Below are positions 2,803 through 62,300 of a stretch of 64,000 bases of DNA, in pieces; within the stretch, counting starts at the first letter, position 1; each line of letters begins with the position of its first letter. Below the pieces are notes generated by a model that was not told the DNA's origin, made no database searches, and worked only from the letters and a program-made list of their open reading frames with translations. Source of the DNA: Nitrososphaeraceae archaeon (GTDB lineage: Archaea > Thermoproteota > Nitrososphaeria > Nitrososphaerales > Nitrososphaeraceae); the NCBI GenBank assembly GCA_035297365.1, contig DATGZA010000011.1, forward strand, positions 87,609 to 151,608, in the 5' to 3' direction. A program made the position numbers and the translations under genes.

Positions 2803-2872
2803 AAAAATGTTATTGAACCCTATTAATATACGGGCTCGGAGCGCTTCGAGTTTGACATTTAGTTGGGATCTG
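2803..2872 (+). repeat. att-like composite site L2-core-RB
   Basis: AAAATGTTATTGAACC arm; CGGGCTCGGAGCGCTTCGAGTTTGACATTTAGTTGGGATC at 2831. Confidence 0.85.
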
Positions 2873-2930
2873 TCTTTACAAATTTAAACTTTAACTTTTT
2901 AAAATCAATGTGACCATTTTAAAAAATCTT

Positions 2931-5223: not shown

Positions 5224-5293
5224 ATATTAATAAACTTATTAATGAGGGTGCAAACAGAGGATAGTCAACCGTTTTTCACATAATTTTGTAGTT
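5224..5293 (+). repeat. degenerate att-like site L5-RA
   Basis: ATATTAATAAACT...CAAACAGAGGATAGTCAACCGTTTTTCACATAATTTTGTAGTT; matches 35560-35630. Confidence 0.65.
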
Positions 5294-5434
5294 TGATAAT
5301 TTTTGTGATTACCTTATTCCTTCCTTATTTACAAAAGACTTTGATATTAATCAAAAGTTTTGTTATTCAATTCCTTAAACACATAAAATAAGAGTAAGAT
5401 GAGGAGATGCTTCTGTAAAAAAATTTTAGGTAAA

Positions 5435-8354: not shown

Positions 8355-8427
8355 TTGATGTAAAAGAGCCTTGATACTATATGGACTCGGAGGGTAGTAA
8401 ACTGTTTTTGACACAATTTTGAAGTTC
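8355..8427 (+). repeat. att-like site L1-core-RA
   Basis: TTGATGTAAAAGAGCCTTGATACTATATGGACTCGGAGGGTAGTAAACTGTTTTTGACACAATTTTGAAGTTC. Confidence 0.85.
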
Positions 8428-8603
8428 TATATCAAAAATATCCACAAATTGTTCTTACATTCTAACAAAAATACCATCGATATCTCACTTTTGATATGGG
8501 TGTAGAATGGATGAAAAACAATAGTAAATTAGAAAATTTTACATTACTCAACTACTTACCTATTAAAAATTTTTAACGTGATACCTATAATTCTATTTAA
8601 TTA

Positions 8604-10004: not shown

Positions 10005-10078
10005 AAAAATGTTATTGAACCATACTAATATAGGGGCTCGGAGGTTTGTAAAATGATTTTGACACAATTTTGTAGTTC
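10005..10078 (+). repeat. att-like site L2-core-RA
   Basis: AAAAATGTTATTGAACCATACTAATATAGGGGCTCGGAGG...ATTTTGACACAATTTTGTAGTTC. Confidence 0.85.
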
Positions 10079-10105
10079 TATAGTTAGAAAAAATAAATTA
10101 TATCT

Positions 10106-11610: not shown

Positions 11611-11873
11611 TTCACTAAAAAGTATACTATAGGAAATTTAAAGAATAGGTTTACAAAGTATTAAAAAATAATTATTACAAGAGAAAAAAAACAATCTGCA
11701 ACGATAAATCTAAAGTAATTTAAAGCAAGAAGGAGATTGTAAAAAATCTTCCTGTTTGTAAATTAAGAGAGTTAAGTGGATATCATATCCTCGGTTATTA
11801 GTATTATATTAAAAAAATATATTTTGCATTTGAACTGAATTTAGTTATATATCAAAAACTTACAGCTGCAGAG

Positions 11874-11912
11874 AGACGATAATCAATTGATTTTGACACA
11901 ATTTTGTAGTTC
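11874..11912 (+). repeat. att-like site, RA arm (core degenerate)
   Basis: TCAATTGATTTTGACACAATTTTGTAGTTC. Confidence 0.75.
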
Positions 11913-12101
11913 ACAAAAAAGAAATGTTGTAAATTGATTAGTAATATTTGAATGCAAATTAACTAAAAATAAAGAGGCAGAACCTTACTAACTAGATGCA
12001 AAATTTCTTATACTGATCGCCCATGTAAGATGTGTTATAACCTTACTCTAAGTTTTGGTTATTGACTTGAAGATAGAAACAAAATAGAATTATACTGGAT
12101 A

Positions 12102-14263: not shown

Positions 14264-14320
14264 CAAATGGTTGACGGGCTCGCAGGTGTATCAACTGTTT
14301 TTGGCACAATTTTGTAGTTC
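14264..14320 (+). repeat. att-like site L3-core-RA
   Basis: CAAATGGTTGACGGGCTCGCAGGTGTATCAACTGTTTTTGGCACAATTTTGTAGTTC. Confidence 0.85.
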
Positions 14321-14374
14321 CCTTTAGAGATATTTATAAAAGATATTTTCTTACTAACATATAGATAAACAATA

Positions 14375-17279: not shown

Positions 17280-17368
17280 AATGAATTAAAGGTTAAAAGA
17301 TCAAACATGTTGTTGTGATAATAGGGACTGGGAGAAGACTTAGAGTACGACATGTACTTGGAATTGGT
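17280..17368 (+). repeat. degenerate att-like site L4-RB
   Basis: ATGAATTAAAGGTTAAAA arm (shared with 36185) then GACTTAGAGTACGACATGTACTTGGAATTGG. Confidence 0.65.
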
Positions 17369-17551
17369 TTGTGAAAAGTATTATATATTTATATCAAAGT
17401 AATTCACAGTAATTAAAAATTATTCCCTATATTATAGTAACATAGATATTCTTATAGGAAAATAATATTGTGATTCTGTGAAAGTATTGATTATAAAATA
17501 AGATTTCAAAATAAGTAAATTCATAACTACCTTTGAGCTGTTTTAGAATCT

Positions 17552-18655: not shown

Positions 18656-18706
18656 CGGGCTCGGAGGACTTCGAATTTCTATTAAATCAGGGTTCGGTAA
18701 CATAAT
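18656..18706 (+). repeat. att-like site core-RB variant
   Basis: CGGGCTCGGAGGACTTCGAATTTCTATTAAATCAGGGTTCGGTAACATAAT; same variant at 36240. Confidence 0.8.
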
Positions 18707-19911: not shown

Positions 19912-20036
19912 TTTCTGATAGTTGGTGCTTGTATGTCTTGATTCCTGATATCTGTAATATTCTTGTATCAAATGCCTGTTGGCATTATTGCAATCTCATT
20001 TATTTTTTTCAGAACAGTTTCAAGTTTTTGGTGCAT
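19912..20036 (-). pseudogene. tyrosine-integrase N-terminal stub (copy A)
   Basis: MHQKLETVLKKINEI/(frameshift)NNANRHLIQEYYRYQESRHTSTNYQK, homologous to stubs at 49971 and 62164; ATG ~60 bp from core at 20097. Confidence 0.55.
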
Positions 20037-20096: not shown

Positions 20097-20220
20097 CGGG
20101 CTAGTAGGACTTGGAATTTGGCTTGTAATTGGGATCGGCTTTCTGTTATTTTATCTTACATTTTTAATATGAAGAGTTGACTAATCACAAAATATTAATT
20201 CAGTTAATGGTACTCGAACC
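20097..20220 (+). repeat. degenerate att-like site core-RB with extended tail
   Basis: CGGGCTAGTAGGACTTGGAATTTGGCTTGTAATTGGGATCGGCTTTCTGTTATTT...ACTCGAACC. Confidence 0.7.
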
Positions 20221-21167: not shown

Positions 21168-21238
21168 GATGTATCAGAGCCTTGATGTTATACGGGCTCA
21201 GAGGATAGTGAACTGATTTTGACACAATTTTGTAGTTC
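21168..21238 (+). repeat. att-like site L1-core-RA
   Basis: GATGTATCAGAGCCTTGATGTTATACGGGCTCAGAGGATAGTGAACTGATTTTGACACAATTTTGTAGTTC. Confidence 0.88.
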
Positions 21239-22104
21239 AAAAATAATATAATAATAAAGTGACCAACTGATTTTCTCAAATAAAATTTTTCTGATAACTT
21301 CAGTGTCCGTAAGCTATAAAATATCTTGTATATTTACAAGTTTTCTAAATAATCTAAACCACAATACCTGAAGCAAAAATTATTTGTAATAAATAAATTT
21401 TCTCAATTATTATAATATAGTTCCACGATTAATATTATTTTTTAACTATACTGATCTGCGTCAAATTCAATTTTTCTTCGACCAATTTATCCTCCAACAA
21501 CAGATCGGGCACTCGAACCTCGAAGCAATAGTTCTACAGTATTATTCATCATTTACAGATTTCACAAATAAAATATCTGCATATTTCAGAACAAAATGAT
21601 TCAACTTGAATATGAGAAATTATTTGTTTGCCGAAATTGATAATTAGAAAAAAGAAGCTAGTTGATATATAAACAAATATCTATTAATTTCATATATCGT
21701 GTAAATATTTTCAATTCAACTATCTGTCAAAATCTTAAATAAAATCTAAACTACTCTCTGATCTATTATAATGTTCATTATATGTATTAATGAAGTGTTA
21801 CGAATGTAAGGTTGTTAGTCATTCTGGCAGGTATACTTTTGTTTTCTCTTATAGGTCTACTATCAGCTACAGCAATAACACAAACAAACAATAATTATAG
21901 TAGAACATCCATATGCACAAGTTGCTAATAACAATGAAAATCTCTCAATTTTATTTTCCTTGGAAGCAAAACCAGTTGGGAACAACCAAAATAATGTCAC
22001 CCAATTAATCAATCAACATAATAACTCTAAAATGAGAGATATAGAATCTGCATTCAACAATACACTAGTTTCTAAGAACCAATTTAAAAATGAAGCCAGC
22101 TTTT

Positions 22105-26060: not shown

Positions 26061-26104
26061 TGGGTTCTGAGGGCTTCGAGTATGACATGTAGTTGGGATC
26101 GGTT
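26061..26104 (+). repeat. att-like site core-RB
   Basis: TGGGTTCTGAGGGCTTCGAGTATGACATGTAGTTGGGATCGG. Confidence 0.85.
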
Positions 26105-26569
26105 AACTAGTATTTATTAATTTGGTAACTTATTTGAATATTTGCCAAACAATTTCTAATATATTAGAAAAATGAAAAAGGGAATCAATGGAATTTGAAC
26201 CCTTCGATAAAGTGGGACCATTATTATATTTCTAATAAACTGATTATACATATTTAATGAGTTAAACTACTAGTCAAATATTAAGTTTCGTTGTAATTTT
26301 TGAGCCTAATTTGAGTGTAAAAAGATAAAGGACAACACTAGTAAAAATTTGGGTCAATAAGATGATTGTTAATTTCTAATTATGGGCTATTGAATTAGGG
26401 TAAATGATAAGTAACTCAAGTTTATAAGAAAAGCTAAAATCATCATTCACTTAAAGGTTAGACACTTGCAATAGTTTCTCCATCAATGACATATTGAGTA
26501 TGGTAATATAAGTAGTCAGGTTGGATACTAAGATACAATGACGATAACGTTGCTCCCTTGTACCAGTCA

Positions 26570-27872: not shown

Positions 27873-27955
27873 ATCTGCTTGGCCCCATTGACTAAATGGG
27901 CTCAATAACTAAAACTTAAGCTTGGAATGCTTCGAGTTTGACATGTAATTGGAAT
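27873..27955 (+). repeat. att-like site L6(hairpin)-RB
   Basis: ATCTGCTTGGCCCCATTGACTAAATGGGCTCAAT...GCTTCGAGTTTGACATGTAATTGG; matches 32745. Confidence 0.75.
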
Positions 27956-28522
27956 ATGTTTTTTAAGATTTAAAATTTGACTTTTCGTATTCACCAATAA
28001 TGTGACCACTGTGAAACCTATTAGAAGAATCAAGGGTTTAAAGAGAAAAAGACTAGTTTTTGATATTGTAATTCAATTAGGAGGTAAAGTACAAAGTTCA
28101 CAAAGGGAAAAGAGATATCAAGACTGGTTTATTGGATTTACTTGTCTATTATGAAGCACCAGAAGGAAAGAGGGACAAAGTAAAGACAAGGTTTGAATTT
28201 ATTAAAAATAAATCCGGTAGGGTTATAATACAAAATCAGTAAGTAACTAATAACAATACTATACTATTGTTACTACTACAAATATTATATAGTAATATTT
28301 CAAATAGTACAAATACTATTAGTAACATGATAAAAAGTATACATGAATAACACCTGTTGTTACGGTTGCAATACTCCGATATACTGGAATATAGAGAAAG
28401 GAGAGTATTGGGAACTATTCCAATGTAAAAAACATATCTGTTCTTACCTGCAGAATAAACCAATAACACACTAACTAACTATCACTGCCATAGAAGCTAG
28501 ATCTATCTTTTTGTTAGTGGTT

Positions 28523-28640: not shown

Positions 28641-28642
28641 TT

Positions 28643-28698
28643 CAATTGGTTGACGGGCTCGGAGGATTGTCAACTGATTCTGACACAAATTTATAGTT
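28643..28698 (+). repeat. att-like site L3-core-RA
   Basis: CAATTGGTTGACGGGCTCGGAGGATTGTCAACTGATTCTGACACAAATTTATAGTT. Confidence 0.88.
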
Positions 28699-28876
28699 GA
28701 GATCATTTTTTCTATTATTAATTATAATACTTTTAAATGTAATAAAAAAATTACTAATTTTATATAATACTATAATATTAGTTCAAATAATTCTGTAGAA
28801 TAAGATAACTTCGAGGTTCATTTTATAATAATTATTAAAAATTTTGGGAATTAAAAAAGGAGAATTAATTAAGTTA

Positions 28877-32744: not shown

Positions 32745-32910
32745 ATCTGCTTGGTCCCATTTACTAAATGGGTTCAATTGTAAAAATACCAGGCTTCGAG
32801 GGCTTCGAGTATGACATGTAGTTGGGAGCGGTTGTCTGTTATTTAATTTTATTTTTTAACATCAAGAATAGTCTACACAAAATGTTAGGTCGAGGAGTGG
32901 CATTAGAATA
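32745..32910 (+). repeat. att-like site L6(hairpin)-core-RB with extended tail
   Basis: ATCTGCTTGGTCCCATTTACTAAATGGGTTCAAT...GAGGGCTTCGAGTATGACATGTAGTTGGGAGCGGTTGTCTGTTATTTAATTTT. Confidence 0.85.
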
Positions 32911-33240
32911 CTTATTCATCGAATATGGGTGGTTTCTATTATTAAGTATAAATATTTAACATTAAAATATTATTTTTCGTATTTCACCAAAAGATATTCT
33001 AGATTAAAATCACTTGTATTATTTACATCGTTGTAAGCAGAACCAAAGAGAGTTTTCAATCATGGTACTTTTAAAGTCTTGGTATACTAGTAAATTTTTT
33101 TAAATCCATATCTGATTATTTTTAATATCGATATTCACATAAATTATTTTAAATATTGATTTGATATCAAATTAATGGCAAAAATCAGAACAAATTATAA
33201 AAAAATATCTGTTATAATAATTTTATTATTATCTTTATTT

Positions 33241-35559: not shown

Positions 35560-35630
35560 ATATTAATAAACTAATACGTAGGCGCTCAAACGGAGGTGTG
35601 TAAACTGTTTTTGACACAATTTTGTAGTTC
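35560..35630 (+). repeat. att-like site L5-RA
   Basis: ATATTAATAAACT...CAAACGGAGGTGTGTAAACTGTTTTTGACACAATTTTGTAGTTC. Confidence 0.8.
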
Positions 35631-35703
35631 AGAATAAGTATTTTTTTAAAGCGTAATAATATTTTGATCGAACTTATAATATTGTATATAACTTATAATA
35701 CTA

Positions 35704-36184: not shown

Positions 36185-36272
36185 AATGAATTAAAGGTTA
36201 AAAATTATACGGGTCGTTGGTATTATAGAGGGTTCTGAGGGCTTCGAGTTCTCATTATAACAGGGTTCGACT
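36185..36272 (+). repeat. att-like site L4-core-RB variant
   Basis: ATGAATTAAAGGTTAAAA...GGGTTCTGAGGGCTTCGAGTTCTCATTATAACAGGGTTCG. Confidence 0.75.
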
Positions 36273-36820
36273 ACCGTGTATTTAGCTTTTTCTCATGATA
36301 ACTTAAAAGAATATTTATCTTTACTAATACACAAACTTCCATTGAAAATTTTCTGTAATTCAAAAAAAATTAGAGTTCTACAGCAACCATAATTATTTTC
36401 TAACAAAATTTTTATCTAAATAGTGATAACGTGGTAATACTTTAACATATATCAGAGTATAGCTAGCAATATATGCCTGAAAACGCAAATAAACAGCGAC
36501 AACAGGACAACAAACAAGAGAAAAAGGTTGTTAATCATAAAAAGAGAAAATTTAAAAGTACGTAGTTCTTTAGGATTTTTATCCTGATAAATTTATTTTG
36601 CATTATTTATTGGTAGAGTCGCATTCTCTATCTAGTTATATTTTTCTCTAAAAATTCACTAATCTATTAACTTCAGCATTTTTCACTAATACAACAATAT
36701 TTTAGTATTACGAACAGAATTTCCAGCAACTTTAATTTGTATCTATTTTTTTAGGTCTTATTGATTTAGATATATACCTAAAAAACTCTTTCATTAATGA
36801 CTTATATCCATAATTAAATA

Positions 36821-44844: not shown

Positions 44845-45237
44845 ATGAAATGTTTGTCATTAAAACAGCCTTTTGCAGACCTTTTAGCTCATGGTGAAAA
44901 GACAATAGAGCTAAGAAAATGGAATACTTCATTCCGAGGAGAATTTCTAATTCATGCTTCAAAAACTATCGATATAGAATCCTCTGAAAGACTAGATATG
45001 AATAGCAACAAGTTTACAATAGGAGCAATAATAGGTTCTGCTTTTCTATATGATGTTAAAGAATATAGTAATCGAGAAGAATTCGAAAAGGATAGACACA
45101 AACACTTTTCTGTGATTACCAAGTATTTTGAAGGTTATAGATATGGTTTCTTGATTAGAGATGCAAAGTTGTTAAAAAATCCAATCCCTTATCCAGGCAA
45201 GTTAAGATTCTTTGAAGTTGATGAAAATATAATTTGA
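44845..45237 (+). CDS. ASCH domain protein
   Basis: MKCLSLKQPFA...GEKTIELRKWNT.FRGEFLIHAS; likely start at ATG 44845. Confidence 0.88.
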   Translation: MKCLSLKQPFADLLAHGEKTIELRKWNTSFRGEFLIHASKTIDIESSERLDMNSNKFTIGAIIGSAFLYDVKEYSNREEFEKDRHKHFSVITKYFEGYRYGFLIRDAKLLKNPIPYPGKLRFFEVDENII

Positions 45238-45463
45238 AAATAATATACAACAGTGTCATATCTTCTGCAACATCCAATAGCTAAATCTAATTGTTAAAAT
45301 TACTTAAAGTTATAATACCTATTATAATTTTAAATCATAAAAATTAGGTTGCTAATATTATAAAAATTTATACTTGAAGATACTATTACTTATTCTGTTG
45401 TTTCACCAAAATAATCGTGGTCTGATTTCTTTACCGAAATAATTAATGATAGTTTTCATTCGT

Positions 45464-45718
45464 TTATGACTCCTCTTCTCCTACGGGTTCTCTAATTGCT
45501 TGAATCTGTCCGCTTTTGAACTGAGTGTCGATAGAGACCCAGAGAGGTTTTTCATATCTTAATATATTTATAATATCATTAAACCTATCTATATTATAAA
45601 AAATATCAAATGTTCCATCTTGGTTTATGATATTCTTAGGAAGAGGTGACTCGTCTACAAATCTAAGTGTGCCGATACTGTTGTTGTCCTTATCGGAGAG
45701 GTGTATATATGCACTCAT
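45464..45718 (-). CDS. hypothetical protein, probably 5'-truncated by RA site
   Basis: RFNDIINILRYEKPL...EPVGEEES; the ORF-track N-terminus MQNCVKIS is just the RA repeat read on the minus strand. Confidence 0.5.
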   Translation of the reverse strand: MSAYIHLSDKDNNSIGTLRFVDESPLPKNIINQDGTFDIFYNIDRFNDIINILRYEKPLWVSIDTQFKSGQIQAIREPVGEEES

Positions 45719-45732
45719 TCTAGGCACTGGCT

Positions 45733-45769
45733 GATGATTATCACTGATTTTGACACAATTTTGCATTTC
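45733..45769 (+). repeat. att-like site, RA arm (core lost)
   Basis: GATGATTATCACTGATTTTGACACAATTTTGCATTTC. Confidence 0.7.
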
Positions 45770-46048
45770 AGAAAGTATTGTTACTATTAATTCAAAATAT
45801 AAAAATCAATGCAGACTTTTTGGATAGTTGGGATGAGTTGTAGGTCTTTTTAATAATCTAAAATTGAGGAATAAACTTAATTACCGTAAAGTTATTTTGC
45901 GCTTAAATCTTTCTCAATACTTGAAAACTCTTTCAATCATAACTAGGCCGGCTCTAAAAATAGAGAAGCAACCCCTGCCAACATATTTTGTTAATTTAAT
46001 TTCAGTAATTAAATGAATAAAATTAGGATGATTGATAACTAATGATCT

Positions 46049-47059
46049 ATGTTCATGTACTTACTGGTTCTACTCCTTGCGGTCAGTTTTACAGTATCAC
46101 TCATCCCCCAAACCCTAGTCGCACAAGTCGAACCAGGATTAACTCCTGCAGTGATTATAAAATCCATGATGCAAGAATTCTCAGTCCCATCAGGCTCCCA
46201 ACCTCACGATGTAGCACCTGCAAAGAATGGTTCGATTTGGTATACCGCCCAGGGTTCAGGAGAATTGGGAATATTAGATCCAACTACAGGCAAGACTCAT
46301 CACATCTCATTAGGCCAGGGATCTGCGCCTCATGGTGTTGTCGTAGGACCAGATGGCGCCCCATGGATTACGGATGGAGGTCTAAATGCCATTGTACGCG
46401 TTGATCCAGAAACTGAAGATCTTAAAATATTTTCACTGCCTGGGGATACTGGTTATGCGAATTTGAATACCGCTACATTTGATCGTAATGGAGTTCTGTG
46501 GTTTACAGGTCAAAGCGGGATCTACGGGCGCTTGGATCCATCACAGGGTAAAGTCGAGCTCTTTAAAGCACCCGGCGGAATAGGGCCTTATGGTATCTCG
46601 ACAACCCCAGAAGGGTCAGTTTACTTTGCGTCGTTGGCCGGTGGATACATTGCTCGTATCAATTTAGAAACGGGAAATGTTACTGTGCTGCAGCCTCCTA
46701 CGCAGGATCAAGGAGCGCGACGGATTTGGTCTGATTCTCAAGATCGAGTTTGGTTCACCGAATGGAACGTAGGAAAATTGGGTCTATACAATCCTTTTAC
46801 CTCTACATGGAAAGAATGGAAACTTCCGGGAAATGATCCGCAACCATATGCTATATTTGTCGACAACAAGGATATTGTATGGTTGAGCGATTTTGGTTCA
46901 AATGCTCTAGTTCGGTTTGATCCGTCGCAAGAAAAGTTTGAACTTTTCTCCTTGCCAACTCCTGGAGCCGATGTGCGTCAACTACTTGGCCGGAGCGGTG
47001 AAGTATGGGGAGCAGAATCTGGAGCTGATAAACTGATAGTACTTCGATCCAGTAATTAA
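46049..47059 (+). CDS. Vgb-family (virginiamycin B lyase-like) beta-propeller
   Basis: PHDVAP..GSIWYTAQGSG, PHGVVVGPDGAPWITDGG, ARRIWSDS. Confidence 0.88.
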   Translation: MFMYLLVLLLAVSFTVSLIPQTLVAQVEPGLTPAVIIKSMMQEFSVPSGSQPHDVAPAKNGSIWYTAQGSGELGILDPTTGKTHHISLGQGSAPHGVVVGPDGAPWITDGGLNAIVRVDPETEDLKIFSLPGDTGYANLNTATFDRNGVLWFTGQSGIYGRLDPSQGKVELFKAPGGIGPYGISTTPEGSVYFASLAGGYIARINLETGNVTVLQPPTQDQGARRIWSDSQDRVWFTEWNVGKLGLYNPFTSTWKEWKLPGNDPQPYAIFVDNKDIVWLSDFGSNALVRFDPSQEKFELFSLPTPGADVRQLLGRSGEVWGAESGADKLIVLRSSN

Positions 47060-47101
47060 GCGATATATTATAACGATATTATTTCACTTGCAACTACAAT
47101 A

Positions 47102-47144
47102 CGGGCTCGGAGGGCTTCGAGTTTGACATGTAGTTGGGATCGGT
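47102..47144 (+). repeat. att-like site core-RB (consensus copy)
   Basis: CGGGCTCGGAGGGCTTCGAGTTTGACATGTAGTTGGGATCGGT. Confidence 0.9.
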
Positions 47145-47162
47145 AATCTTGTTTTTATATTT

Positions 47163-47396
47163 TTAGTAACTTATTAAAATATTACTAAAATAATGTTTAC
47201 TAGACCCTTTTTGTAACCATTCGTTTCGTATAAGTTTTTCCCATTTAGCAAGATTATCATAAGTATTGAACCTAAATATAATCATATATTCTGATTTAGA
47301 TTTAATACTGGCATTAGAAGTTGGTCTAATTATATCAATACCCATACTTCCCTCTTGTCTAGAGACTTCCTTGGATTCCTGAAAGCCATTCTTCAA
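47163..47396 (-). pseudogene. antibiotic-biosynthesis-monooxygenase-like fragment
   Basis: GIDIIRP...EYMIIFRFNTYDNLAKWE; both ends appear missing. Confidence 0.5.
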
Positions 47397-48107
47397 ATTC
47401 TTTAATTCTTACAAAAATATTTTATTTTTCTTTATTAGTAGTATCTATATTTACTATATATGAAAAATCAATTCCCTACAGCAATGGTGAAACTAAATTA
47501 TCTATGATCCTCTATCTTTTATTCAATGATATATTTAGCTTTTTTATTCAACCTTTTGTATAACCTAGTAGAATAAGGTGCAAAAATAAGAGTCTGTTGT
47601 AGAAATACTATTATATTGTATTTAGCTTTTATTGTTAGAAACTTATTTAATATTAAATCAAATCAGTATATAATAATAGGCTCATTTTCATACGGGTTCG
47701 GTGGACTGATGTAGAATTTTAAATACAGTGCTATCATTTATTTTTTTTAAAAAGCCATAACCTTCCCTGAAGCCAAGGATGCATATAGAAGGCTATGGTA
47801 TGCCACAAGTTCTTTGGACGACTTTTTTGGTTGAAATGTAAATAAATCTTTGTTAGCTATAATATTTAACGATTTGAGATAAATTAATTGTCATAGCCTG
47901 AACTGCTAGAAGATAATCTCCCTGATGATTCAGATTCTGACGATTTGCCTATCTATCTGTCTATCTGGGAGAAGATTGGATAGAGTATATTGTAATAATT
48001 ATAGAAAAAAATAATATTTATCAGTTTTACAAATTCTCTTTTATTTTCTGAAATTAATACTTATAATAAATGTCTGTTATTATGATAAAAAGTAAAAAAA
48101 ATAGGGT

Positions 48108-48887
48108 TTAAGGTCTCAATGGTGGATTGTCAAAACATTCTACATCGGGAGTGACGAAACCATTTCCACTATTTATTCCAAATACTGTAATATTCCATCC
48201 AGTATGAGTAGCCAACGGTTCACTTGATATTAGTAGAGGTATTGCGGGAAGTAAACCTGGTTCGGGGATGCCAATTTGCCCAACTTCAAAACTTCCACTT
48301 AATGCTGTGTCGCCTGGGTCACAATTCGCTACTGCACTACCAAAATCACGAGTAAAAATCCTGTCGTTAGTTTCACCTACATTAGTATAGACGTTAGTAG
48401 GGTTTATTGTGCTAGGACCTTGTGGAAGCTCATCCTTTAACTGTTCGTTGTCATTAGCATTTACACAAACATTTACTAGATTTCTGTCAAAGTTTATTCT
48501 ATCTGCAAGTCCGTTACCATTCTCTGTATTTGCTGCTTCTGGACCTCCTTCATTTGCTGCTCCTAAGGCAGTATTGTCGTGAGGTATCTCGGTAACATCT
48601 ACACCATTTACGTTGACGTTACTATTTCTACAATTTATTTTCTGGATATCTCCATAACTTTTTGAATCTTTTTTATCGTAACTATACCTATTGTCGTCTT
48701 GATAATAGTAGTTGCTATCATCTCCATATTGATCACCATAGGAATGTCGATCATCATAATCTCCACTGCCATATGGCACTGCTTGTGCATTTGTAATTGT
48801 TGACGGGTTCAGAGCCAATATACTTGTCGCTAGTATTGCTCCCAGTACAGAAGCAAAAACTATCATTCTATTGTTACTATCGGTCAT
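48108..48887 (-). CDS. secreted CxNxNxNVNG-family protein with C-terminal A.C..GD.ALSG domain
   Basis: Signal peptide, Y/D-rich segment, QKINCRNSNVNVNG...DRNLVNVCVN, C-terminal CFDNPPLRP. Confidence 0.85.
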   Translation of the reverse strand: MTDSNNRMIVFASVLGAILATSILALNPSTITNAQAVPYGSGDYDDRHSYGDQYGDDSNYYYQDDNRYSYDKKDSKSYGDIQKINCRNSNVNVNGVDVTEIPHDNTALGAANEGGPEAANTENGNGLADRINFDRNLVNVCVNANDNEQLKDELPQGPSTINPTNVYTNVGETNDRIFTRDFGSAVANCDPGDTALSGSFEVGQIGIPEPGLLPAIPLLISSEPLATHTGWNITVFGINSGNGFVTPDVECFDNPPLRP

Positions 48888-49023
48888 TACACTATTAAAT
48901 ACGAATTTAATATATCTGTGGTTGGAAGGAACATTATCTAATCTTGTAATATTTTATCATGCTGAATTATTGACTATAAGAAGAATAGAAAATGATGTTA
49001 AGGTGGAAAGTGAAATCCTAGCA
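48888..49023 (-). promoter_or_regulatory. motif C leader, copy 4
   Basis: Aligns with copies 1-3, 5, 6; directly upstream of ATG 48887. Confidence 0.8.
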
Positions 49024-49087
49024 TTACAGCAACCAATACAGGTCCACGAAAGACCCAAGATAAGAAATAATATCAGCATGACTAGCA

Positions 49088-49109
49088 TGGAGGGGATGGG
49101 ATTTGAACC
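49088..49109 (+). repeat. tRNA 3'-end-like remnant
   Basis: Reverse complement GGTTCAAAT-CCCAT-CCCCTCC-A. Confidence 0.5.
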
Positions 49110-49186
49110 AGTTACGTGCATTCACTGGTTTGTGCAGTTCATACTAAAGAAACAGATAGAAACTAAAATTGAAGAATTATAGATAT

Positions 49187-49363
49187 TTAATCTTCAAAGA
49201 AAGGTCTATGTTGAACATCGAAACCTGGAGATATATTTGCAAATTGCATTATTGTGATCATTTTGCATATTTTGTCCTGTAACTCTGAATGTTCAATGAA
49301 TTTCTTTTTACAAATAGGACATTTAGTTTCTTTTCCTACATTCATAATGATACTATCGCTCAT
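49187..49363 (-). CDS. small zinc-finger-like protein (58 aa) behind motif C
   Basis: Hand translation MSDSIIMNVGKETKCPICKKKFIEHSELQDKICKMITIMQFANISPGFDVQHRPFFED*. Confidence 0.5.
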   Translation of the reverse strand: MSDSIIMNVGKETKCPICKKKFIEHSELQDKICKMITIMQFANISPGFDVQHRPFFED

Positions 49364-49499
49364 TACATTGTTAAATACGAATTTAATTTATCTAAGGTTA
49401 GAAGGAACATTATCTGATCTTGTATTATTTCAACATTCTGAATTATTGACTATAAGAAGAATAGAAAATTATGTTAAGGTAGAAAGTACAACCCTAGCA
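49364..49499 (-). promoter_or_regulatory. motif C leader, copy 5
   Basis: TACATTGTTAAATACGAATTTAATTTATCTAAGGTTAGAAGGAACATTATCT...GTTAAGGTAGAAAGT. Confidence 0.8.
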
Positions 49500-49970
49500 C
49501 TGCTCCACCCAACCTGGTAAGTTCCCACGAAGAAAGAATATGGCTAGAATAATAAATTAATTAATGTATAATTCTAAAAAAGGAATAAGAATAAAATTTT
49601 ATCAAAGAATCTATAACTAATGTTTTTATTAATACATATATATGATGAAATCAGCGATTAAAAAGTTGTCCACCTGAAAGAGTTGTCCTGATACATAAGA
49701 TGAAAAAGTTTTGCAGGAAAAATACCGGAGTTATTTATACTGGTATTATAGTTATTCAATTTGATCTAAATTGTTACTCATTTTATGTCATCTTTAATTG
49801 ATCAAATAATATTTTTATAATTCAAACTTATTGATTGTTATCATGTTAAAGAATCTTTATCGTATTAGTATAATGTAATATTGGATATAAAAAGAATAAT
49901 GATAATCTTGACCATATATTAAAGATATATTATTCTATTATAAAAAATCGTTTCCAACATACATAAAAAT

Positions 49971-50098
49971 ATCGTTTTGATACCTTTCAGAAGTTCGCTG
50001 AGATACTAATATTCATAAAATTCAATGAGCAAAGTAGCATTATTCCTGTTTGCAAGTGCATCTACTTTTTTCAGAATATTTGCTAACTTTGTTGGCAT
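49971..50098 (-). pseudogene. tyrosine-integrase N-terminal stub (copy B)
   Basis: MPTKLANILKKVDALANRNNATLLIEFYEY..(frameshift)..RTSERYQND; resembles thaumarchaeal integrase N-termini (recalled, not searched); ATG 59 bp from core at 50157. Confidence 0.65.
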
Positions 50099-50145
50099 CT
50101 TCCTGATGACTCCTGTTCACTTCTAGTATCTATAGTATATGAGCC

Positions 50146-50202
50146 CAATTGGTTGACGGGCTCGGAGGATTGTCAACTGTTTTTGACACAATTTTGTAGT
50201 TC
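50146..50202 (+). repeat. att-like site L3-core-RA (consensus copy)
   Basis: CAATTGGTTGACGGGCTCGGAGGATTGTCAACTGTTTTTGACACAATTTTGTAGTTC. Confidence 0.9.
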
Positions 50203-50280
50203 AGAATAAGTATATACTTCAAAGAAGAATGAATGATTTTTAATATGGTTTATAATAATTTCATCTTACTAATAATGCTA

Positions 50281-50715
50281 ATGGTAGAAATGACCAAAGA
50301 TGAAATCCAAAATTTTCTTTTAAAAGACACTTTTACAGGGAAACTCGGGACAATTAACAAGAATGGAACACCTCATGTCGTCACTATTTGGTATACTTTA
50401 GATGAGGAAGATAATATTTTATTTAATACCGATTATAATTCAGTAAAAGCAAAAAATATTCAACGTGACAATCGAGTTCGTTTATGTGTAGACGATCAGA
50501 CTCCTCTTTTCTCATTTGTTACTATAGACGGTATAGCAGAAATAATTAGTAAAGAACCAAGAGAAGTTTACAAATGGGCTAAAATTATTGCGGCAAGGTA
50601 TATGGGAAATGATAAGGCAGAAGAGTATGGTAGGAGAAATAGTTCAGAAGGTGAACTATTGATAAAAATAACACCAACCAAAGTTATCGGTCAAAAAGAT
50701 ATAGCAGGATGGTAA
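50281..50715 (+). CDS. PPOX-class F420-dependent oxidoreductase, copy 2
   Basis: Close paralog of 35704-36138; start taken at ATG 50281 by alignment. Confidence 0.9.
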   Translation: MVEMTKDEIQNFLLKDTFTGKLGTINKNGTPHVVTIWYTLDEEDNILFNTDYNSVKAKNIQRDNRVRLCVDDQTPLFSFVTIDGIAEIISKEPREVYKWAKIIAARYMGNDKAEEYGRRNSSEGELLIKITPTKVIGQKDIAGW

Positions 50716-50785
50716 ATTAATTCATTTTTTCATAGTTGGATTTATTTATAATTTTTAAATTACATATTTAAAAATCGGTACACCA

Positions 50786-51122
50786 GTTGTTGATGTTATA
50801 TTGGTTCTGAGGTCTTGGAGTATGTCATGTAATTGGGATCGGTTTTCTGTTATTTTATTTTACTTTGTAATATCAAGATCAGTGTGAAGACAATATGTTA
50901 ACTCGGGCAGTTGAATTCGAACTCCTAAGGAGTAGAACTGGATTTGTATCAATTAAATAGATGATATATTTGCTTCTAGATCTAACTATTTTTAGGATCA
51001 GACATTACATCAATATACCTGTAAATATTCTCTATTATAAATAAAGATAAACCACTTTGTTGTAATTATAATTGCGATTACATCCTCATGCGGCACCGTG
51101 TGTTTCCGGAACGAAGAAAGTG
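50786..51122 (+). repeat. att-like site L4-RB plus ~280-bp non-coding tail
   Basis: GGTTCTGAGGTCTTGGAGTATGTCATGTAATTGGGATCGGTTTTCTGTTATTT...ATGTTAACTCGGG...TTCGAAC...TCTATTATAAATAAAGATAAAC...TCCGGAACGAAGAAAGTG; matches 55770-56069. Confidence 0.8.
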
Positions 51123-51213
51123 GACATTTGTCGACCACTTTCTACTCCGGAATTACTGATAATTCTTGATATTAAATTCTTGATATCGCTAGAATAACGA
51201 TAGATTAATTAAT

Positions 51214-51414
51214 TTAGATAAGGTCTTGGACTATACGACCACAATCATGACACTGTAACCAGTCATAACAGTCATGTGGTAGTTCTCCATTGATTAATTC
51301 CTCTTTTTTGTATAGCCGTGGAATTAATTGAACATAAATTCCCACTTCCAGACATCGAGGACACCAGCTCGTATTAGGAATATCTACTGGACTTGGTTTA
51401 TCTAACATTGACAA
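51214..51414 (-). CDS. small zinc-ribbon protein
   Basis: WCPRC...LQCHDCG. Confidence 0.6.
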   Translation of the reverse strand: MSMLDKPSPVDIPNTSWCPRCLEVGIYVQLIPRLYKKEELINGELPHDCYDWLQCHDCGRIVQDLI

Positions 51415-51627
51415 GGGATACCACTAAACTAATAAAATTATATATGTATAATGATACAATATTTCAAAATTATTTTATATTTGGGTTGCAAGAAAGATGT
51501 GAATGTTGTCTTAAATTAACATCCATCCATGAAAATCTACATGTATGGTGGTTATCTTTTGTATCCTTTTTAGCCCCCATTTTGTTATGTCTTTCTATCT
51601 ATTAAGCATTGGAGACAAGAACCTCCG

Positions 51628-51900
51628 CTATGTAGAATCTTTGTTTATAACAAGCATCTCTTTTGTTGTTGCTACTATTACTTTGCCATGTGCTTTTCTC
51701 CGTTTGATTCTTTCATAAAATGTTCTCATGTGATGGTCATATCTTCCTGCGGATAATGAACACTGTACTAGTATCCATCTCAGCAAACGAGAACCATGTT
51801 TGGCGATTCTATCTGTTTTTGTTTTTCCAGATGATTCTCTTGTTGATGGTGCAAGTCCTGCATAACTAACAAGTTTCCAGGGTGTTGCAAATAATACCAG
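51628..51900 (-). mobile_element. IS110-family transposase C-terminal remnant
   Basis: KLVSYAGLAPSTRESSGK...KHGSRLLRWILVQ...FYERIK...KVIVA. Confidence 0.85.
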
Positions 51901-52152
51901 GCTATTGAGTACATGGATTCTAAAAATGATCAATTAATTTTAGTATTATTTTTCAATCTGAAGACATTGATTTGTTAAAATAAATCTTTTAAAATTAAAT
52001 AATTCATTAAAAAATATTCAATATATAGTCATTACTTCAGTTAACAACAAATATTCAATATTTTTTAAAAAAATTTTAACTGCCAAAATATAACATCATA
52101 TGAAATAATCATTACAATATAGTTAAGTGATAAAGATAGAACTACTATTTGA

Positions 52153-53568
52153 TCATATATCATCTATTCGCATAAGTAATAACTGACCTCCTTCGTATAG
52201 GGTATGTGCTTGAGTATCTAGTAACCATGTTCCAGGACCAAAAATATCGGATGTTTCAATTATACCACTTGATTCCCATTGACCACCTAGAGATGAATTT
52301 GTTAAACTATCAGATTGATCAACTATAGCTACAGCGGTTAAAGTATTGCTGTTAAGGTCATATTTCAATATCCTTGCATTGACTCCGCCGTCAAATTTGT
52401 TGTAATCATTTAAGTCTTCTTGTATCATTAAGCTTTTATCACTAGTGGCTATGTTGTCTGGATTCCTTATATCGTCACCTACTTCATCGCCATCCAAGAT
52501 TATAGAAAAAGTTGTATTAAAGCTATCATTTGTATTTCCATTTTGATATGTAATGAGCTTTGACACATCAAACTTGTATATTCTGCCATTTTGATATTTA
52601 TCACCATCTACTTCTTCAATACCACCAGTATCAGCCAGATATATTATCAGCTTGTTATTTTTATCATAATCGATATCTTCCAACCTAATAAAATTTAGTG
52701 CATTTAATTCTTGAACCTCGTTTTCAAGATCAGTAGAATTTTGTTTTTTCCAATCCCAATTTACCGGCTCAAAATGACCTTGGTATTGATATCCTTTTTG
52801 AAGATCTCTGAAACTTGAAATATTATTATCTCCAACAAGGACATATAACTGGCCCTGTCCTCTTAGAAAATTATCAGTGGTATTGGATATAAATGCATAC
52901 AATTGAGATTTATCATAATCGCCATCTTCTGTAGCTACTATTACTGTTTTATTGTATCTATTTGGAACAACTATAGTATTTTCATGTGAATAAAGTCCAA
53001 GCCAAGGCATCTCTGTTTTAGCCCCACTTACTATGTCATAAGCAACTACAAGTCCATTATCATGTTCTTCATTCGTTAGGAATATAGGATTTTTAAATCC
53101 TTCCTCTTTTACTAATGTTGCCGAACAAAAATTTTCATATTTTCCAGATCCATCTTCAACTAATTTTCCTGAGAAAACTTTACCATTTTCAGTTGTAGAT
53201 ATTTTAGAAATTTTTGCATATTCATTCACTTCATCTAGCATTAACTCATGATTTACAAAAATATCTATCAAGCCAGTGTTATCATTTTCAGTTACTCCAA
53301 TTCCATCTGGTATGCGTGGAAATGTGAAACCAGATGGAAGTATATCCCCGGAGGTTATAATAGGTTTTATAAAACTATTTCCTGGAGATATAACTTGAAT
53401 ATGAGGTTTTTCTTTTGTAGAAAATAGATTGGTCATATTTACTAAATTTGTAGAATTATCATTTTGCTGTGCATAAATATCTGATATAAATACTATCGAT
53501 ATTAAACTAACTATACCAATTGATATCAAAATATAGGTTGTACAAAAAGCAATGTATGTCTTAATCAT
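52153..53568 (-). CDS. PhoX-family (DUF839) alkaline phosphatase-like secreted protein
   Basis: PDGIG, VNHE, FCSA, SHEN, RLEDI, NPDNI, IQED, WESSGII. Confidence 0.8.
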   Translation of the reverse strand: MIKTYIAFCTTYILISIGIVSLISIVFISDIYAQQNDNSTNLVNMTNLFSTKEKPHIQVISPGNSFIKPIITSGDILPSGFTFPRIPDGIGVTENDNTGLIDIFVNHELMLDEVNEYAKISKISTTENGKVFSGKLVEDGSGKYENFCSATLVKEEGFKNPIFLTNEEHDNGLVVAYDIVSGAKTEMPWLGLYSHENTIVVPNRYNKTVIVATEDGDYDKSQLYAFISNTTDNFLRGQGQLYVLVGDNNISSFRDLQKGYQYQGHFEPVNWDWKKQNSTDLENEVQELNALNFIRLEDIDYDKNNKLIIYLADTGGIEEVDGDKYQNGRIYKFDVSKLITYQNGNTNDSFNTTFSIILDGDEVGDDIRNPDNIATSDKSLMIQEDLNDYNKFDGGVNARILKYDLNSNTLTAVAIVDQSDSLTNSSLGGQWESSGIIETSDIFGPGTWLLDTQAHTLYEGGQLLLMRIDDI

Positions 53569-54057
53569 TGGATTCGTGTATATATAGATAAATTAATAAA
53601 TTGCGTAAATTATCTATGTTGTCTATCTACTTCTATTTAGAGAGCTATATAATTTTTCAAATGGCTTGGGTAGACAATAGACATAAAAAGTATATATATG
53701 TTTGAATTATTGGAACAAATTAGATAGTCTATATTCCTACGTGTATTATAAAAAAATACTCAGATCTAACGTATAACAATGTTAATTGATTTCTAAAATC
53801 ATTATCTAGATTCATGTACAATCTTTATAAAAATATGCAAAACTGGTTCAACAACAATACCAGCAAGGTTAATACAATATAATATTGGATATTTTCTATC
53901 CTTCATCCATTGATCCGATTTAGAGAATATTTTATATAATTTGTTTCGTTCTAAATTTAAGGTTGAAATCAATATCATAACTGGTTAATAAAACTTATTT
54001 TCAAGATTACAAAAAAATGGCAAAAAAATAACATTACACAACGAATTTTTAAATTCA

Positions 54058-54599
54058 TTCCAATACATCCCAAAGGCCATGTTCTTTACCAAAGGTAAGT
54101 GAATTCATATAGATTACTTAAATAGTTTCGAGCTTACCTTACGTGATGCAAGGATCTCAGAACTCAATATTGTAACTGCTTCTGGTATCTAATCTCCAAA
54201 ATGTAAAATCATAACTATTTCAGAAAGAAGAAAATATCCTATCCCTAGACAATTTACTTTCGCTGTCATTGCAAGATCATCTACCAATGAATCTAATAGA
54301 TTAATTGCTGCCTCAATTGGACTAGCAAATCGTAAAGAAGAGGAAAATACGGATATTTATCAGAACGTCATGCTACAAGAGAAACAGCTCCGAAAGCTGG
54401 AAATTATGCTGAAGATATGGCAGCAGAAATGTTAGCTACAACTATGGGTCTTCCACGATCCTTCTTTAAAATGGGATGATAAATATATCAATGGAGGTAT
54501 CAGGTAAAACTTACAAGGGCAAAATTATATCTAACCTGCCGAAGGTATATGGATGGATCGTGGTCCACAGTTCTAAGTGCAGCAGTTTTCATCCTTTGA
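54058..54599 (+). pseudogene. pdaD: pyruvoyl-dependent arginine decarboxylase pseudogene
   Basis: YIPKAMFFTKGK*IHIDYLNSFELTLRDA...NRLIAASIGLA...[15 protein letters not shown]...WSTVLSAAVFIL; several stops and frameshifts. Confidence 0.85.
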
Positions 54600-54809
54600 T
54601 GAGTAAATAATGTATGTGTTTTTGATTACAAATCTTGTTTAATTAATAAAAAAATGGAGGAAAACTCTATCTTCGATTTCTAAAATTGGCAGTAGTATTA
54701 TTGTTTACAGGAGAATAATTTTGGGTAGCTCTTTATATAAAAATTGTGAGAAAAGATTGTTGTAACTTAGGATCAATTTAATATCATTCAAAATGTAAAA
54801 ATTATAATA

Positions 54810-55742: not shown

Positions 55743-56069
55743 TTGATGTAGCAGAGCCTTGATATAATACGGGCTCGGAGGGCTTCGAGTATGACATGTA
55801 GTTGGGATCGGTTTTCTGTTATTTAATTTTATTTTTTATTATCAAGAATAGTGTAAACACCAAATGTTAACTCGGGGGCTATGATTCGAACCCTACCCAA
55901 AATCTCAGGGGTTAATATCAAAAGTATCAATACGTAATTCAGTTATTTAGATCAATATAACTACACATATTTTCTATTATAAATAAAGATAAACTACTTT
56001 TATCGTAATTGCTTATACAATAACCTTCTTATCGACTACTCGGCTTGTATATCCGGAACGAAGAAAGTG
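55743..56069 (+). repeat. att-like site L1-core-RB plus non-coding tail
   Basis: TTGATGTAGCAGAGCCTTGATATAATACGGGCTCGGAGGGCTTCGAGTATGACATGTAGTTGGGATCGG; tail homologous to 50841-51122. Confidence 0.88.
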
Positions 56070-62120: not shown

Positions 62121-62163
62121 TGTAAATATGTTGGATAATTAATCATATAAAAATTGGGTTATC

Positions 62164-62292
62164 ATCGTTTTGATACCTCTCAGAAGTTCGTACGGATTTC
62201 AAATATTCATGAAATTCAAACAGCAAATTTGCATTATTTCTGTTAGCAAGTGCATGTACTTTTTTAAGAATATTTGCTAACTTTGTTGGCAT
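62164..62292 (-). pseudogene. tyrosine-integrase N-terminal stub (copy C)
   Basis: MPTKLANILKKVHALANRNNANLLFEFHEYLKSVRTSERYQND; homology to copy B ends at the same base. Confidence 0.65.
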
Positions 62293-62300
62293 CTTCCTGA

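What the first reader, a model, noticed from the sequence alone, without database searches (positions are those of the whole stretch)
47102..47120. The site core is an exact tRNA 3' end read backwards
Seen: the reverse complement of CGGGCTCGGAGGGCTTCGA is TCGAAG-CCCTC-CGAGCCC-G. This parses as T-loop (minus its first base), 5-nt T-stem strand, 7-nt acceptor strand and G discriminator. Established: a 5' GGGC(T/C)CG acceptor with G discriminator is typical of archaeal tRNA-Lys/Arg. RB sites keep 19 nt of the match, while RA sites keep only ~12 nt (CGGGCTCGGAGG). Inference: two element families use the same tRNA target, possibly with different crossover points.
Basis: partly seen in the sequence, partly recalled or inferred. 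Interest (0 to 1): 0.75.

Follow-up and report, generated by a model that had tools for sequence, protein, structure and literature searches.

The report
tRNA-Arg attachment-site array in a soil archaeon
The 19-base motif really is the end of an arginine tRNA gene read backwards, and its many copies are docking-site scars of mobile DNA that inserted again and again at that gene, building a large island of one- and two-gene cassettes in a soil ammonia-oxidising-type archaeon; the mechanism is a known one, the scale is unusual.

Summary
Observation confirmed. CGGGCTCGGAGGGCTTCGA is exact at window 47102 and 55770. Five more copies carry 1-3 mismatches, all on the + strand, against 0 expected by chance. 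Its reverse complement equals the last 19 nt of tRNA-Arg(TCG) in a same-genus genome, G017. There a tyrosine-integrase gene starts 58 nt after the tRNA, and further copies of the site follow it. This assembly has no tRNA-Arg(TCG) gene; its best match is tRNA-Arg(TCT) on contig C79, 18 of 19. The window holds 21 sites bounding 20 units, median 2.1 kb; 16 of the 20 hold one or two ORFs. The whole contig has 31 sites over about 100 kb, all in one orientation. Each site is a junction. One side is an integrase-side arm (four types). The middle is the tRNA-derived core. The other side is a distal arm, RA (12-nt core) or RB (19-nt core). Arm types combine freely. Four N-terminal integrase stubs lie next to sites, in the expected orientation. 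Verdict: a tandem accretion island of tRNA-targeting integrative elements and integrase-less cassettes. This is a known kind (CIME accretion, tycheposon-like islands), here at unusual scale in Nitrososphaerales. Different crossover points for RA and RB are not shown.

The parts
47102..47146 (-). The reported site: RB-type att junction. Core 47102-47120 is 19/19 with the tRNA-Arg(TCG) 3' end (tRNA sense on the - strand); RB distal arm 47121-47146.
55770..55814 (-). RB site, core 19/19; integrase-side arm of type T2 to its left
2831..2875 (-). RB site, core 18/19; T3 arm to its left
5249..5298 (-). RA arm with unrecognisable core (6/12)
8382..8431 (-). RA site, core 10/12; T2 arm to its left
10033..10082 (-). 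RA site, core 11/12; T3 arm to its left
11867..11916 (-). RA arm with unrecognisable core (4/12)
14275..14324 (-). RA site, core 11/12; partial T1 arm to its left
17326..17370 (-). Weak RB-like site (nhmmer E 0.025; core 8/19)
18656..18700 (-). Core 18/19 with a third distal-arm variant (...CAGGGTTCGGTAAC), the same kind as the attR of the G017 integrase element
20097..20141 (-). Decayed RB site (15/19); integrase stub to its left
21193..21242 (-). RA site, core 11/12; T2 arm to its left
26061..26105 (-). RB site with variant core GGGTTCTGAGG (16/19)
27917..27961 (-). Decayed RB site (13/19); T4 arm to its left
28654..28703 (-). RA site, core 12/12; T1 arm to its left
32790..32834 (-). RB site (16/19); T4 arm to its left
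35585..35634 (-). RA arm with altered core (7/12); left end of PNPOx cassette copy A
36229..36273 (-). Variant core (16/19) with the third arm variant; right end of PNPOx cassette copy A
45725..45774 (-). RA arm with unrecognisable core (5/12)
50157..50206 (-). RA site, core 12/12; T1 arm and integrase stub to its left; left end of PNPOx cassette copy B
50801..50845 (-). Decayed RB site (13/19); right end of PNPOx cassette copy B
49965..50098 (-). Integrase N-terminal stub (about 45 codons, 92% identical over 36 aa to the G017 integrase). Its ATG lies 58 nt from the core at 50157, the same spacing as between tRNA and integrase gene in G017.
19912..19989 (-). 26-codon integrase stub (65% identical to the G003-type integrase), left of the site at 20097
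62146..62292 (-). Integrase N-terminal stub (77% over 57 aa). A GC-rich segment lies where its att site is expected.

Best explanation
The 19-mer is the core of an attachment (att) site copied from the 3' end of the tRNA-Arg(TCG) gene. Mobile elements with a Nitrososphaeraceae-type tyrosine integrase carry an attP made of an integrase-side arm (P'), the core, and a distal arm (P, of type RA or RB). Recombination with the end of the tRNA gene inserts the element and duplicates the core. Repeated insertions at the same gene, or at core copies already in the island, stack units head to tail. Every internal site is then a P-core-P' hybrid whose two arms come from different neighbours. Most units have since lost their integrase, or never had one. 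They now hold one or two accessory genes: transporters, dehydrogenases, Kdp, Nramp, MgtC, PhoX-like and others. Shown: the identity of core and tRNA end; the tRNA-integrase-att layout in congeners; one orientation throughout the contig; free combination of arms; integrase stubs at fixed spacing. Inferred: that the integrase makes these junctions; where the crossover lies; whether any unit still moves.
For: Core and tRNA. The core is 19/19 with the end of tRNA-Arg(TCG) in G017.
Layout in congeners. A 436-aa ORF starts 58 nt after that tRNA. It hits PF00589 at E 7e-6 and archaeal XerA NF040815 at E 1.2e-6. It has 1687 homologues at E<=1e-5, many named integrase or XerD by their sources. All Foldseek top hits are tyrosine recombinases. 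The same tRNA-integrase pair occurs in G003 and G010, so in 3 of the 5 congener tRNA loci examined. A core copy closes the element in G017 and G003.
The array. nhmmer finds 31 sites on C11:40400-143421, 31 of 31 on the + strand and 26 with E<1e-3. Outside C11 and C6 only 2 hits have E<1e-3.
Junction structure. Four P' arm types combine with the RA and RB arms in six combinations.
Integrase remains. Four N-terminal stubs lie on C11, all on the - strand, each next to a site or an expected site. None keeps the catalytic part.
Site placement. All 21 window sites are intergenic.
Comparison with G017. G017 has one extra 3.3-kb unit between two RA sites where this genome has a single site. Ends of G000-G017 homology blocks fall in site zones 6 of 38 times, against 1.15 expected; the maximum in 2000 random draws was 7. 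The far part of the island is collinear with G017 at 92-96% identity, while the window part shares only shuffled, cassette-sized pieces.
Independent samples. In contigs of four metagenome runs from four studies, homology to the RA site breaks at 50156-50158 and at 50199-50203, and most of the preceding sequences resemble the T3 arm (table 7).
Against: This assembly has no tRNA-Arg(TCG) gene, and neither end of the array reaches a tRNA. Anchoring therefore rests on congeners.
In G017 the homologous large array points away from the tRNA. Site orientation flips at both borders of a roughly 185-kb block (1170-1176 kb and 1359-1362 kb). That fits an inversion inside the island, but this is inferred.
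Only 4 of about 30 units keep any integrase trace.
32 of 38 homology-block ends are not at sites, so ordinary recombination and deletion also shape the island.
Six RA-arm sites have cores that do not resemble the tRNA end.
The integrase score in Pfam is at the threshold: 26.3 bits against a cut-off of 27.1, and 28.1 bits. The structure model is mediocre, with pLDDT 69.8 and TM-scores 0.18-0.37.
Confidence: 0.85

Rival explanations
1. An active cassette platform that works like an integron. The integrase-less one-gene units are not wrecks. They are genuine cassettes, each able to excise as a circle that rebuilds a full P'-core-P site, and they are moved in trans by the single integrase beside the tRNA.
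For: Units are compact: 9 of 20 hold one ORF and 7 of 20 hold two, with median size 2.1 kb and sites always intergenic. T2 and T3 arms are only about 20-30 nt long and never carry an integrase remnant. A 644-nt PNPOx cassette occurs twice, with homology starting in the left core and ending just after the right core. Cassette order differs between this genome and G017. Exact cores persist beside integrase-less units.
Against: Many cores are decayed or replaced: 12 of the 21 window sites have 3 or more mismatches. No circular or empty-site forms were seen. The joints have sides of only 25-50 nt and can be cross-matches between repeat copies. Most homology breakpoints are not at sites. No intact integrase of this family was found in this assembly.
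Confidence: 0.3
2. The target is the assembled tRNA-Arg(TCT) on contig C79, and the single A/G difference is drift.
For: It is the only tRNA in this assembly with a near match, 18 of 19.
Against: No core copy and no RA or RB arm lies downstream of it on C79. The CGGGCCC form occurs about once per genome across the genus, while the CGGGCTC form is the multicopy one. tRNA-Arg(TCG) is 19 of 19 and is the tRNA next to the integrase in congeners.
Confidence: 0.04
3. A dispersed intergenic repeat (of the MITE or REP kind, or a regulatory module) that resembles a tRNA end by chance or by tRNA-derived origin, with no part in integration.
For: The sites are short, intergenic and numerous. The RA arm holds a small palindrome.
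Against: 33 of the 35 hits with E<1e-3 lie in one island (C11 plus C6), and all 31 C11 sites share one orientation. Integrase genes or stubs sit at a fixed 58-nt spacing. An intact tRNA carries the same end at the head of the array in G017.
Confidence: 0.03

Closest known systems
Integrated mobile elements of Thaumarchaeota at tRNA genes (Krupovic et al. 2019, PMC6563490; section 7 and passages read)
   Same: Tyrosine-recombinase elements recombine with the 3'-distal part of tRNA genes. The att sites are short (median 17 bp in that survey). Most elements are 'cryptic integrated elements' carrying accessory genes. The paper notes that such elements can form arrays by re-using one site.
   Different: In the passages I read, that survey reports single or few elements per tRNA. 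Here there are 31 core copies over about 100 kb, and about 215 kb in G017, mostly integrase-less units of one or two genes. Its Table S2 (targets per element) is a supplement I could not open, so I cannot say whether tRNA-Arg(TCG) was among the targets.
CIMEs and site-specific accretion with ICEs/IMEs (ICESt1/ICESt3 paradigm; review PMC5704250, passages read)
   Same: Elements that lost their integration genes but kept attL and attR stay in tandem with an integrase-bearing element at the 3' end of a target gene. New arrivals integrate into an existing att site.
   Different: Those are bacterial, conjugation-linked, and usually two or three elements long. No conjugation or replication module was seen here, and the units are far smaller and more numerous.
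Tycheposon islands of Prochlorococcus (preprint 10.1101/2020.12.28.424599, passages read)
   Same: Incoming elements at an island tRNA push older ones further in. Islands hold fragmented integrases and scattered partial tRNAs. Cargo is nutrient- and stress-related.
   Different: A different domain of life. Tycheposon integrases are described as one clade, and membership was not tested here. Here the partial-tRNA copies are much denser.
Integrons (IntI, attI, attC cassettes)
   Same: A one-orientation array of mostly single-gene, recombinase-less cassettes separated by recombination sites. One Foldseek hit is IntI (2a3v).
   Different: No attC-type folded site: single-strand folds give z-scores from +0.4 to -3.2 and show only short local inverted repeats. 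The core is a tRNA end. Cassette genes face both ways. No attI or Pc arrangement was seen.

Membership tests
tRNA-gene-targeting tyrosine-integrase integrative elements (tDNA islands) | Direct repeats identical to the 3' end of a tRNA gene | tested here: met
   19/19 with tRNA-Arg(TCG) of G017, G003 and G010. In this assembly only 18/19, with tRNA-Arg(TCT).
tRNA-gene-targeting tyrosine-integrase integrative elements (tDNA islands) | An intact target tRNA gene at the head of the array | tested here: inconclusive
   Met in G017: the tRNA at 1147352-1147426 is followed by same-sense sites at 1152037, 1153312, 1157948 and 1169949. In this genome tRNA-Arg(TCG) is absent from the assembly.
tRNA-gene-targeting tyrosine-integrase integrative elements (tDNA islands) | Integrase gene next to the tRNA-side att | tested here: met
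   Seen in G017, G003 and G010, 3 of 5 congener tRNA loci. This contig has only N-terminal stubs, at the same 58-nt spacing.
tRNA-gene-targeting tyrosine-integrase integrative elements (tDNA islands) | The recombinase belongs to the tyrosine recombinase superfamily | tested here: met
   PF00589 at 26.3 and 28.1 bits against a 27.1 cut-off. NF040815 at E 1.2e-6. Source names 'integrase/XerD'. Foldseek top hits are XerA, lambda Int, IntI and Cre at E from 2.6e-3 upward, with low TM-scores. Invariant R180, K208, R298, H299, W320 and Y330 in 40 sequences; assigning them to the catalytic positions rests on recall.
tRNA-gene-targeting tyrosine-integrase integrative elements (tDNA islands) | Demonstrated excision or integration | not testable with these tools
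   Only contigs were available, and the joints are ambiguous.
CIME / accretion arrays | att-flanked units without integration genes, in tandem with an integrase-bearing element at the same target | tested here: met
   for this contig; for G017.
CIME / accretion arrays | Cis-mobilisation together with a functional element | not testable with these tools
   Needs an experiment.
Tycheposons | Integrase inside the tycheposon tyrosine-recombinase clade | not tested
   No phylogeny was run; the resemblance is in island architecture only.
Integrons | attC sites that fold as imperfect hairpins, with IntI and attI at one end | tested here: not met
   Folds of three full sites on both strands show no site-spanning hairpin. 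No IntI-like gene at either end of the contig.

The most novel reading that the evidence does not exclude
Soil Nitrososphaeraceae carry an archaeal counterpart of the integron. It would be a 100-200 kb platform at tRNA-Arg(TCG) in which integrase-less single-gene cassettes, each bounded by a roughly 30-nt P' arm and a roughly 40-nt P arm around a tRNA-mimic core, are excised, shuffled and re-inserted in trans by one tRNA-adjacent tyrosine integrase. The platform would serve as the main store of accessory transport and stress genes.
Probability: 0.25. Interest if true: 0.8.

Novelty: new member of a known kind. Interest (0 to 1): 0.5.

Why it matters
The result explains the repeat array in this window and assigns it a target gene and an enzyme family. 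It also shows that a flexible island, about 100 kb here and about 215 kb in a better-assembled congener, is built from att-bounded cassettes of one or two genes in a genus of soil Nitrososphaerales, an order that includes ammonia oxidisers of agronomic importance. If some units still move, the island would be a route by which these archaea trade transporters and stress genes, and a natural site-specific integration system for a group without genetic tools. The same repeats probably break short-read assemblies. That would explain why the target tRNA is missing here and lies close to a contig end in several congeners.

Tried and rejected
1. Structure of the integrase. The second, from 40 sequences, reached pLDDT 69.8 with a weak catalytic domain, so its Foldseek hits are only weak support. 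Profile searches of PDB sequences found no recombinase.
2. Empty-site comparator. A 6-kb flank searched in five congeners gave scattered hits on many contigs and no usable synteny.
3. Crossover point from the duplicated PNPOx cassette. The left boundary suggests a crossover at or before core position 7. The shared variant T at position 8 of the right core argues the other way. I draw no conclusion.
4. Metagenome contigs. Joints between site coordinates have short sides (25-50 nt) at 90% likeness and may be cross-matches between repeat copies. Stretches without cover (for example 51-55 kb in three runs) are not evidence of absence.
5. attC-like folding was not found.
6. SSV-type 'suicidal' integrase, with the att site inside the int gene, is rejected. 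The intact gene in G017 begins 58 nt beyond the core, and the stubs start at the initiator Met.
7. Earlier scan notes by place and by sequence returned nothing.
8. One search failed on a wrong reference and was repeated correctly.

Full report
OBSERVATION. The motif CGGGCTCGGAGGGCTTCGA lies at window 47102-47120. With up to 3 mismatches it occurs 7 times in the window, always on the + strand, and none of 100 shuffles gave a match. The first 12 nt, with up to 2 mismatches, occur 12 times, all +, against 0.21 expected. The window itself holds no tRNA (ARAGORN; Rfam).

THE tRNA. The window is G000:C11:87609-151608, the last 64 kb of a contig in a 2.52-Mb, 110-contig assembly of about 31% G+C. ARAGORN with introns allowed lists 35 tRNA calls. 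The nearest match to the reverse-complemented motif is an intron-bearing tRNA-Arg(TCT) at C79:7124-7216, ending TCGAAGCCCTCCGGGCCCG, 18 of 19 (Rfam 42 bits). No RA or RB site follows it.

Across 41 relatives, 31 hold the motif with up to 2 mismatches, 23 of 24 in the same genus. The CGGGCCC form appears about once per genome; the CGGGCTC form is multicopy.

In congener G017 (10 contigs) an intron-less tRNA-Arg(TCG) at C10:1147352-1147426 ends with exactly the 19 nt (Rfam 54 bits). Identity stops at the first T-loop base. It was not found in G000. I read that as an assembly gap caused by the repeats, but this is inference.

THE ENZYME. In G017 a 436-aa ORF starts 58 nt after the tRNA.
- It matches PF00589 (E 7e-6; 26.3 bits and 28.1 bits, against a cut-off of 27.1).
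- It matches archaeal XerA NF040815 at E 1.2e-6.
- It has 1687 homologues at E<=1e-5. Many are named integrase or XerD by their sources, including Nitrososphaeraceae and Nitrosocosmicus records.
- A 40-sequence alignment has invariant R180, K208, R298, H299, W320 and Y330, plus a C-terminal four-cysteine motif. Mapping these to catalytic roles is from recall.
- The AlphaFold model is mediocre (pLDDT 69.8). All listed Foldseek hits except one are tyrosine recombinases (XerA, lambda Int, IntI, Cre), with E from 2.6e-3 upward and TM-scores of 0.18-0.37.

The same tRNA-integrase pair occurs in G003 (58% identity) and G010 (74%), but not at the tRNA of G015 or G016. A second core copy closes the element about 4.6 kb downstream in G017 and about 21 kb downstream in G003. 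Record titles of the loci found with the integrase name Nitrososphaerales and Nitrososphaeraceae archaea.

THE ARRAY. Profiles of the two site families found 31 sites on C11 between 40400 and 143421, all on the + strand, 26 of them with E<1e-3. Two more lie on C6. Outside C11 and C6 only two solitary hits have E<1e-3. The window holds 21 of these sites.

Each site reads, on the + strand, [P' arm][core][P arm]. The P arm is one of three kinds.
- RA: CGGGCTCGGAGG followed by ATTGTCAACTGTTTTTGACACAATTTTGTAGTTC.
- RB: the full 19-mer followed by GTATGACATGTAGTTGGGATCGG.
- A third variant, at 18656 and 36229, is shared with the G017 attR.

The P' arm falls into four types, T1 to T4. T1 (...GAGCCCAATTGGTTGA) is the reverse complement of the sequence that follows the tRNA and precedes the integrase gene in G017. 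Arm types combine freely: T1+RA, T2+RA, T2+RB, T3+RA, T3+RB and T4+RB. That is what tandem integration predicts for internal junctions.

Four integrase N-terminal stubs lie on C11, at 60165-60518, 107520-107597, 137573-137760 and 149754-149927. All are on the - strand and each lies just left of a site or an expected site. None retains the catalytic part. At window 50098 the ATG sits 58 nt from the core, as in G017.

No PF00589 match lies on C11. The genome's other integrase genes are on C12 (beside tRNA-Thr), C18 and C26, with a pseudogene on C9.

UNITS AND CARGO. The 20 units in the window span 644-9496 bp, with a median of 2132 bp. Nine hold one ORF of at least 90 aa, seven hold two, two hold three, one holds six and one holds none. 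No substantial ORF crosses a site. Cargo includes MFS transporters, zinc dehydrogenases, a Kelch protein, HSP20, methyladenine glycosylase, a luciferase-like oxidoreductase, KdpA and KdpB, Nramp, a Vgb-lyase-like propeller, a PNPOx-like protein, a PhoX-like protein, MgtC and a metallophosphatase. Genes lie on both strands.

COMPARISON WITH G017. C11:5501-85179 is collinear with G017 1207685-1274056 at 92-96% identity. The window part shares only cassette-sized pieces in a different order. G017 has an extra 3.3-kb unit between two RA sites where G000 has one site. Ends of homology blocks hit site zones 6 of 38 times, against 1.15 expected, so 32 of 38 do not. C6:194-1509 equals the G017 segment just after its integrase element at 99% identity.

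In G017, sites read in tRNA sense from the tRNA to 1169949. They read in the opposite sense from 1176672 to 1358999 (22 sites), and in tRNA sense again at 1361847. A single inversion inside a roughly 215-kb island would explain this. It would also place the variable, window-like part originally nearest the tRNA, as expected if new units enter at the tRNA end. This is inference.

A 644-nt PNPOx cassette occurs twice in the window. Homology begins inside the left core and ends just after the right core.

INDEPENDENT SAMPLES. Twenty runs from 12 studies hold part of window 45000-54999. Four runs of one study hold 84-97% and may be the source. Contigs of four other studies were laid at 90% likeness. 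They show homology to the RA site breaking at 50156-50158 and at 50199-50203, and most of the sequences in front resemble the T3 arm (table 7). The joints between site coordinates have short sides and prove nothing on their own.

MECHANISM AND RIVALS. The best reading is serial site-specific integration at tRNA-Arg(TCG), followed by loss of integrase genes (confidence 0.85). Whether the small units are fossils or still movable in trans is open; I put about 0.25-0.3 on active cassettes. RA sites share 12 nt with the tRNA and RB sites 19 nt, so any RA crossover must lie in CCTCCGAGCCCG. Nothing shows that RB uses a different point. Related integrases in four loci sit beside another core (...CTCCCGACGGGCCCG) with the same GGGTTCATATAC arm motif, so the integrase family has retargeted.

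WHAT IS KNOWN. The following points come from the papers as read.
- Integration of thaumarchaeal elements into tRNA 3' regions, with short att sites, and array formation by site re-use are described in PMC6563490 (section 7 and passages).
- CIMEs and accretion are defined in PMC5704250 (passages).
- Islands in which new elements push older ones inward, leaving fragmented integrases and partial tRNAs, are described in the tycheposon preprint 10.1101/2020.12.28.424599 (passages).
- Tandem integration in archaea is noted in PMC8371274 (passages).

My searches found no paper that describes this array in Nitrososphaerales. They were: Thaumarchaeota with integrated elements, tRNA and integrase (20 papers, 10 listed); Nitrososphaera with genomic island, tRNA, integrase and tandem (4 papers); tycheposon (28 papers, 10 listed). 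I read only listings and the passages named. Earlier notes of this scan report similar integrase-less cassette rows at tRNA-Arg genes in several other phyla; I did not check them.

VERDICT. The site is a new member of a known kind. It is notable mainly for its scale and its cassette-like compactness.

Noticed in passing
window 62300-62590: A roughly 290-nt segment of 49-58% G+C in a roughly 30% G+C contig, unique in the genome. It starts right after the first codons of an integrase stub, where an att site is expected. The ORF across it gives a short DUF1326 hit. It could be a foreign insertion or an assembly chimera near the contig end.
   Followed up: partly
L029 2868-2942; L023 1081-1155; L026 4604-4678; L025 983-1057: tRNA-Arg(TCG) of four congeners has GTGGG opposite CCCTC in the T-stem (a U50-U64 mismatch). 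G015, which has no integrase beside the tRNA, has a perfectly paired AAGGG/CCCTT stem and a GGGCCCG/CGGGCCC acceptor. The 3' part of the tRNA may have been replaced by element-borne sequence.
   Followed up: partly
window 26061, 36229, 50801: A recurring variant core GGGTTCTGAGG(G/T)CTT(C/G)GA, exact twice on C11. It matches no tRNA in this assembly and may mark a separate attP lineage.
   Followed up: partly
window 5249, 11867, 35585, 45725 (and C11:46244): RA arms joined to sequences unlike the tRNA core; some share ...CAAAC.GAGG. At 5249 and 35585 the left flanks are homologous to each other. Their origin is unexplained.
   Followed up: no
window 50141-50163 and other T1/T3 junctions; L032, L033, L035, L036 upstream of int: The core's GAGCCC is mirrored by GGGCTC or GGGTTC in the P' arm at a constant spacing of about 11 nt. 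The motif GGG(C/T)TCATATAC is kept even next to a different core. It may be an integrase binding site.
   Followed up: partly
window 47089-47139: At the reported site itself the left flank CAACTACA is an inverted copy of TGTAGTTG in the RB arm, so an 8-bp inverted repeat brackets the core (single-strand fold z -3.2).
   Followed up: no
window 28506-28673, 48869-49036, 49345-49512, 61469-61584: Another repeat family of about 110-170 nt (families D11, D17 and D18), unrelated to the att sites, inside several units. Metagenome contig depth peaks at 48.7-49.6 kb.
   Followed up: no
window 33203-34816: The 666-aa BNR/Asp-box protein gene is built of about 10 tandem units of about 155 nt.
   Followed up: no
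G000 C78:10340-10640 and C63:380-920: Further stubs of the same integrase family outside the island. Each follows a different core-like sequence and a GGG(T/C)T(C/T)A arm motif; C78 also has an RA-like arm.
   Followed up: no
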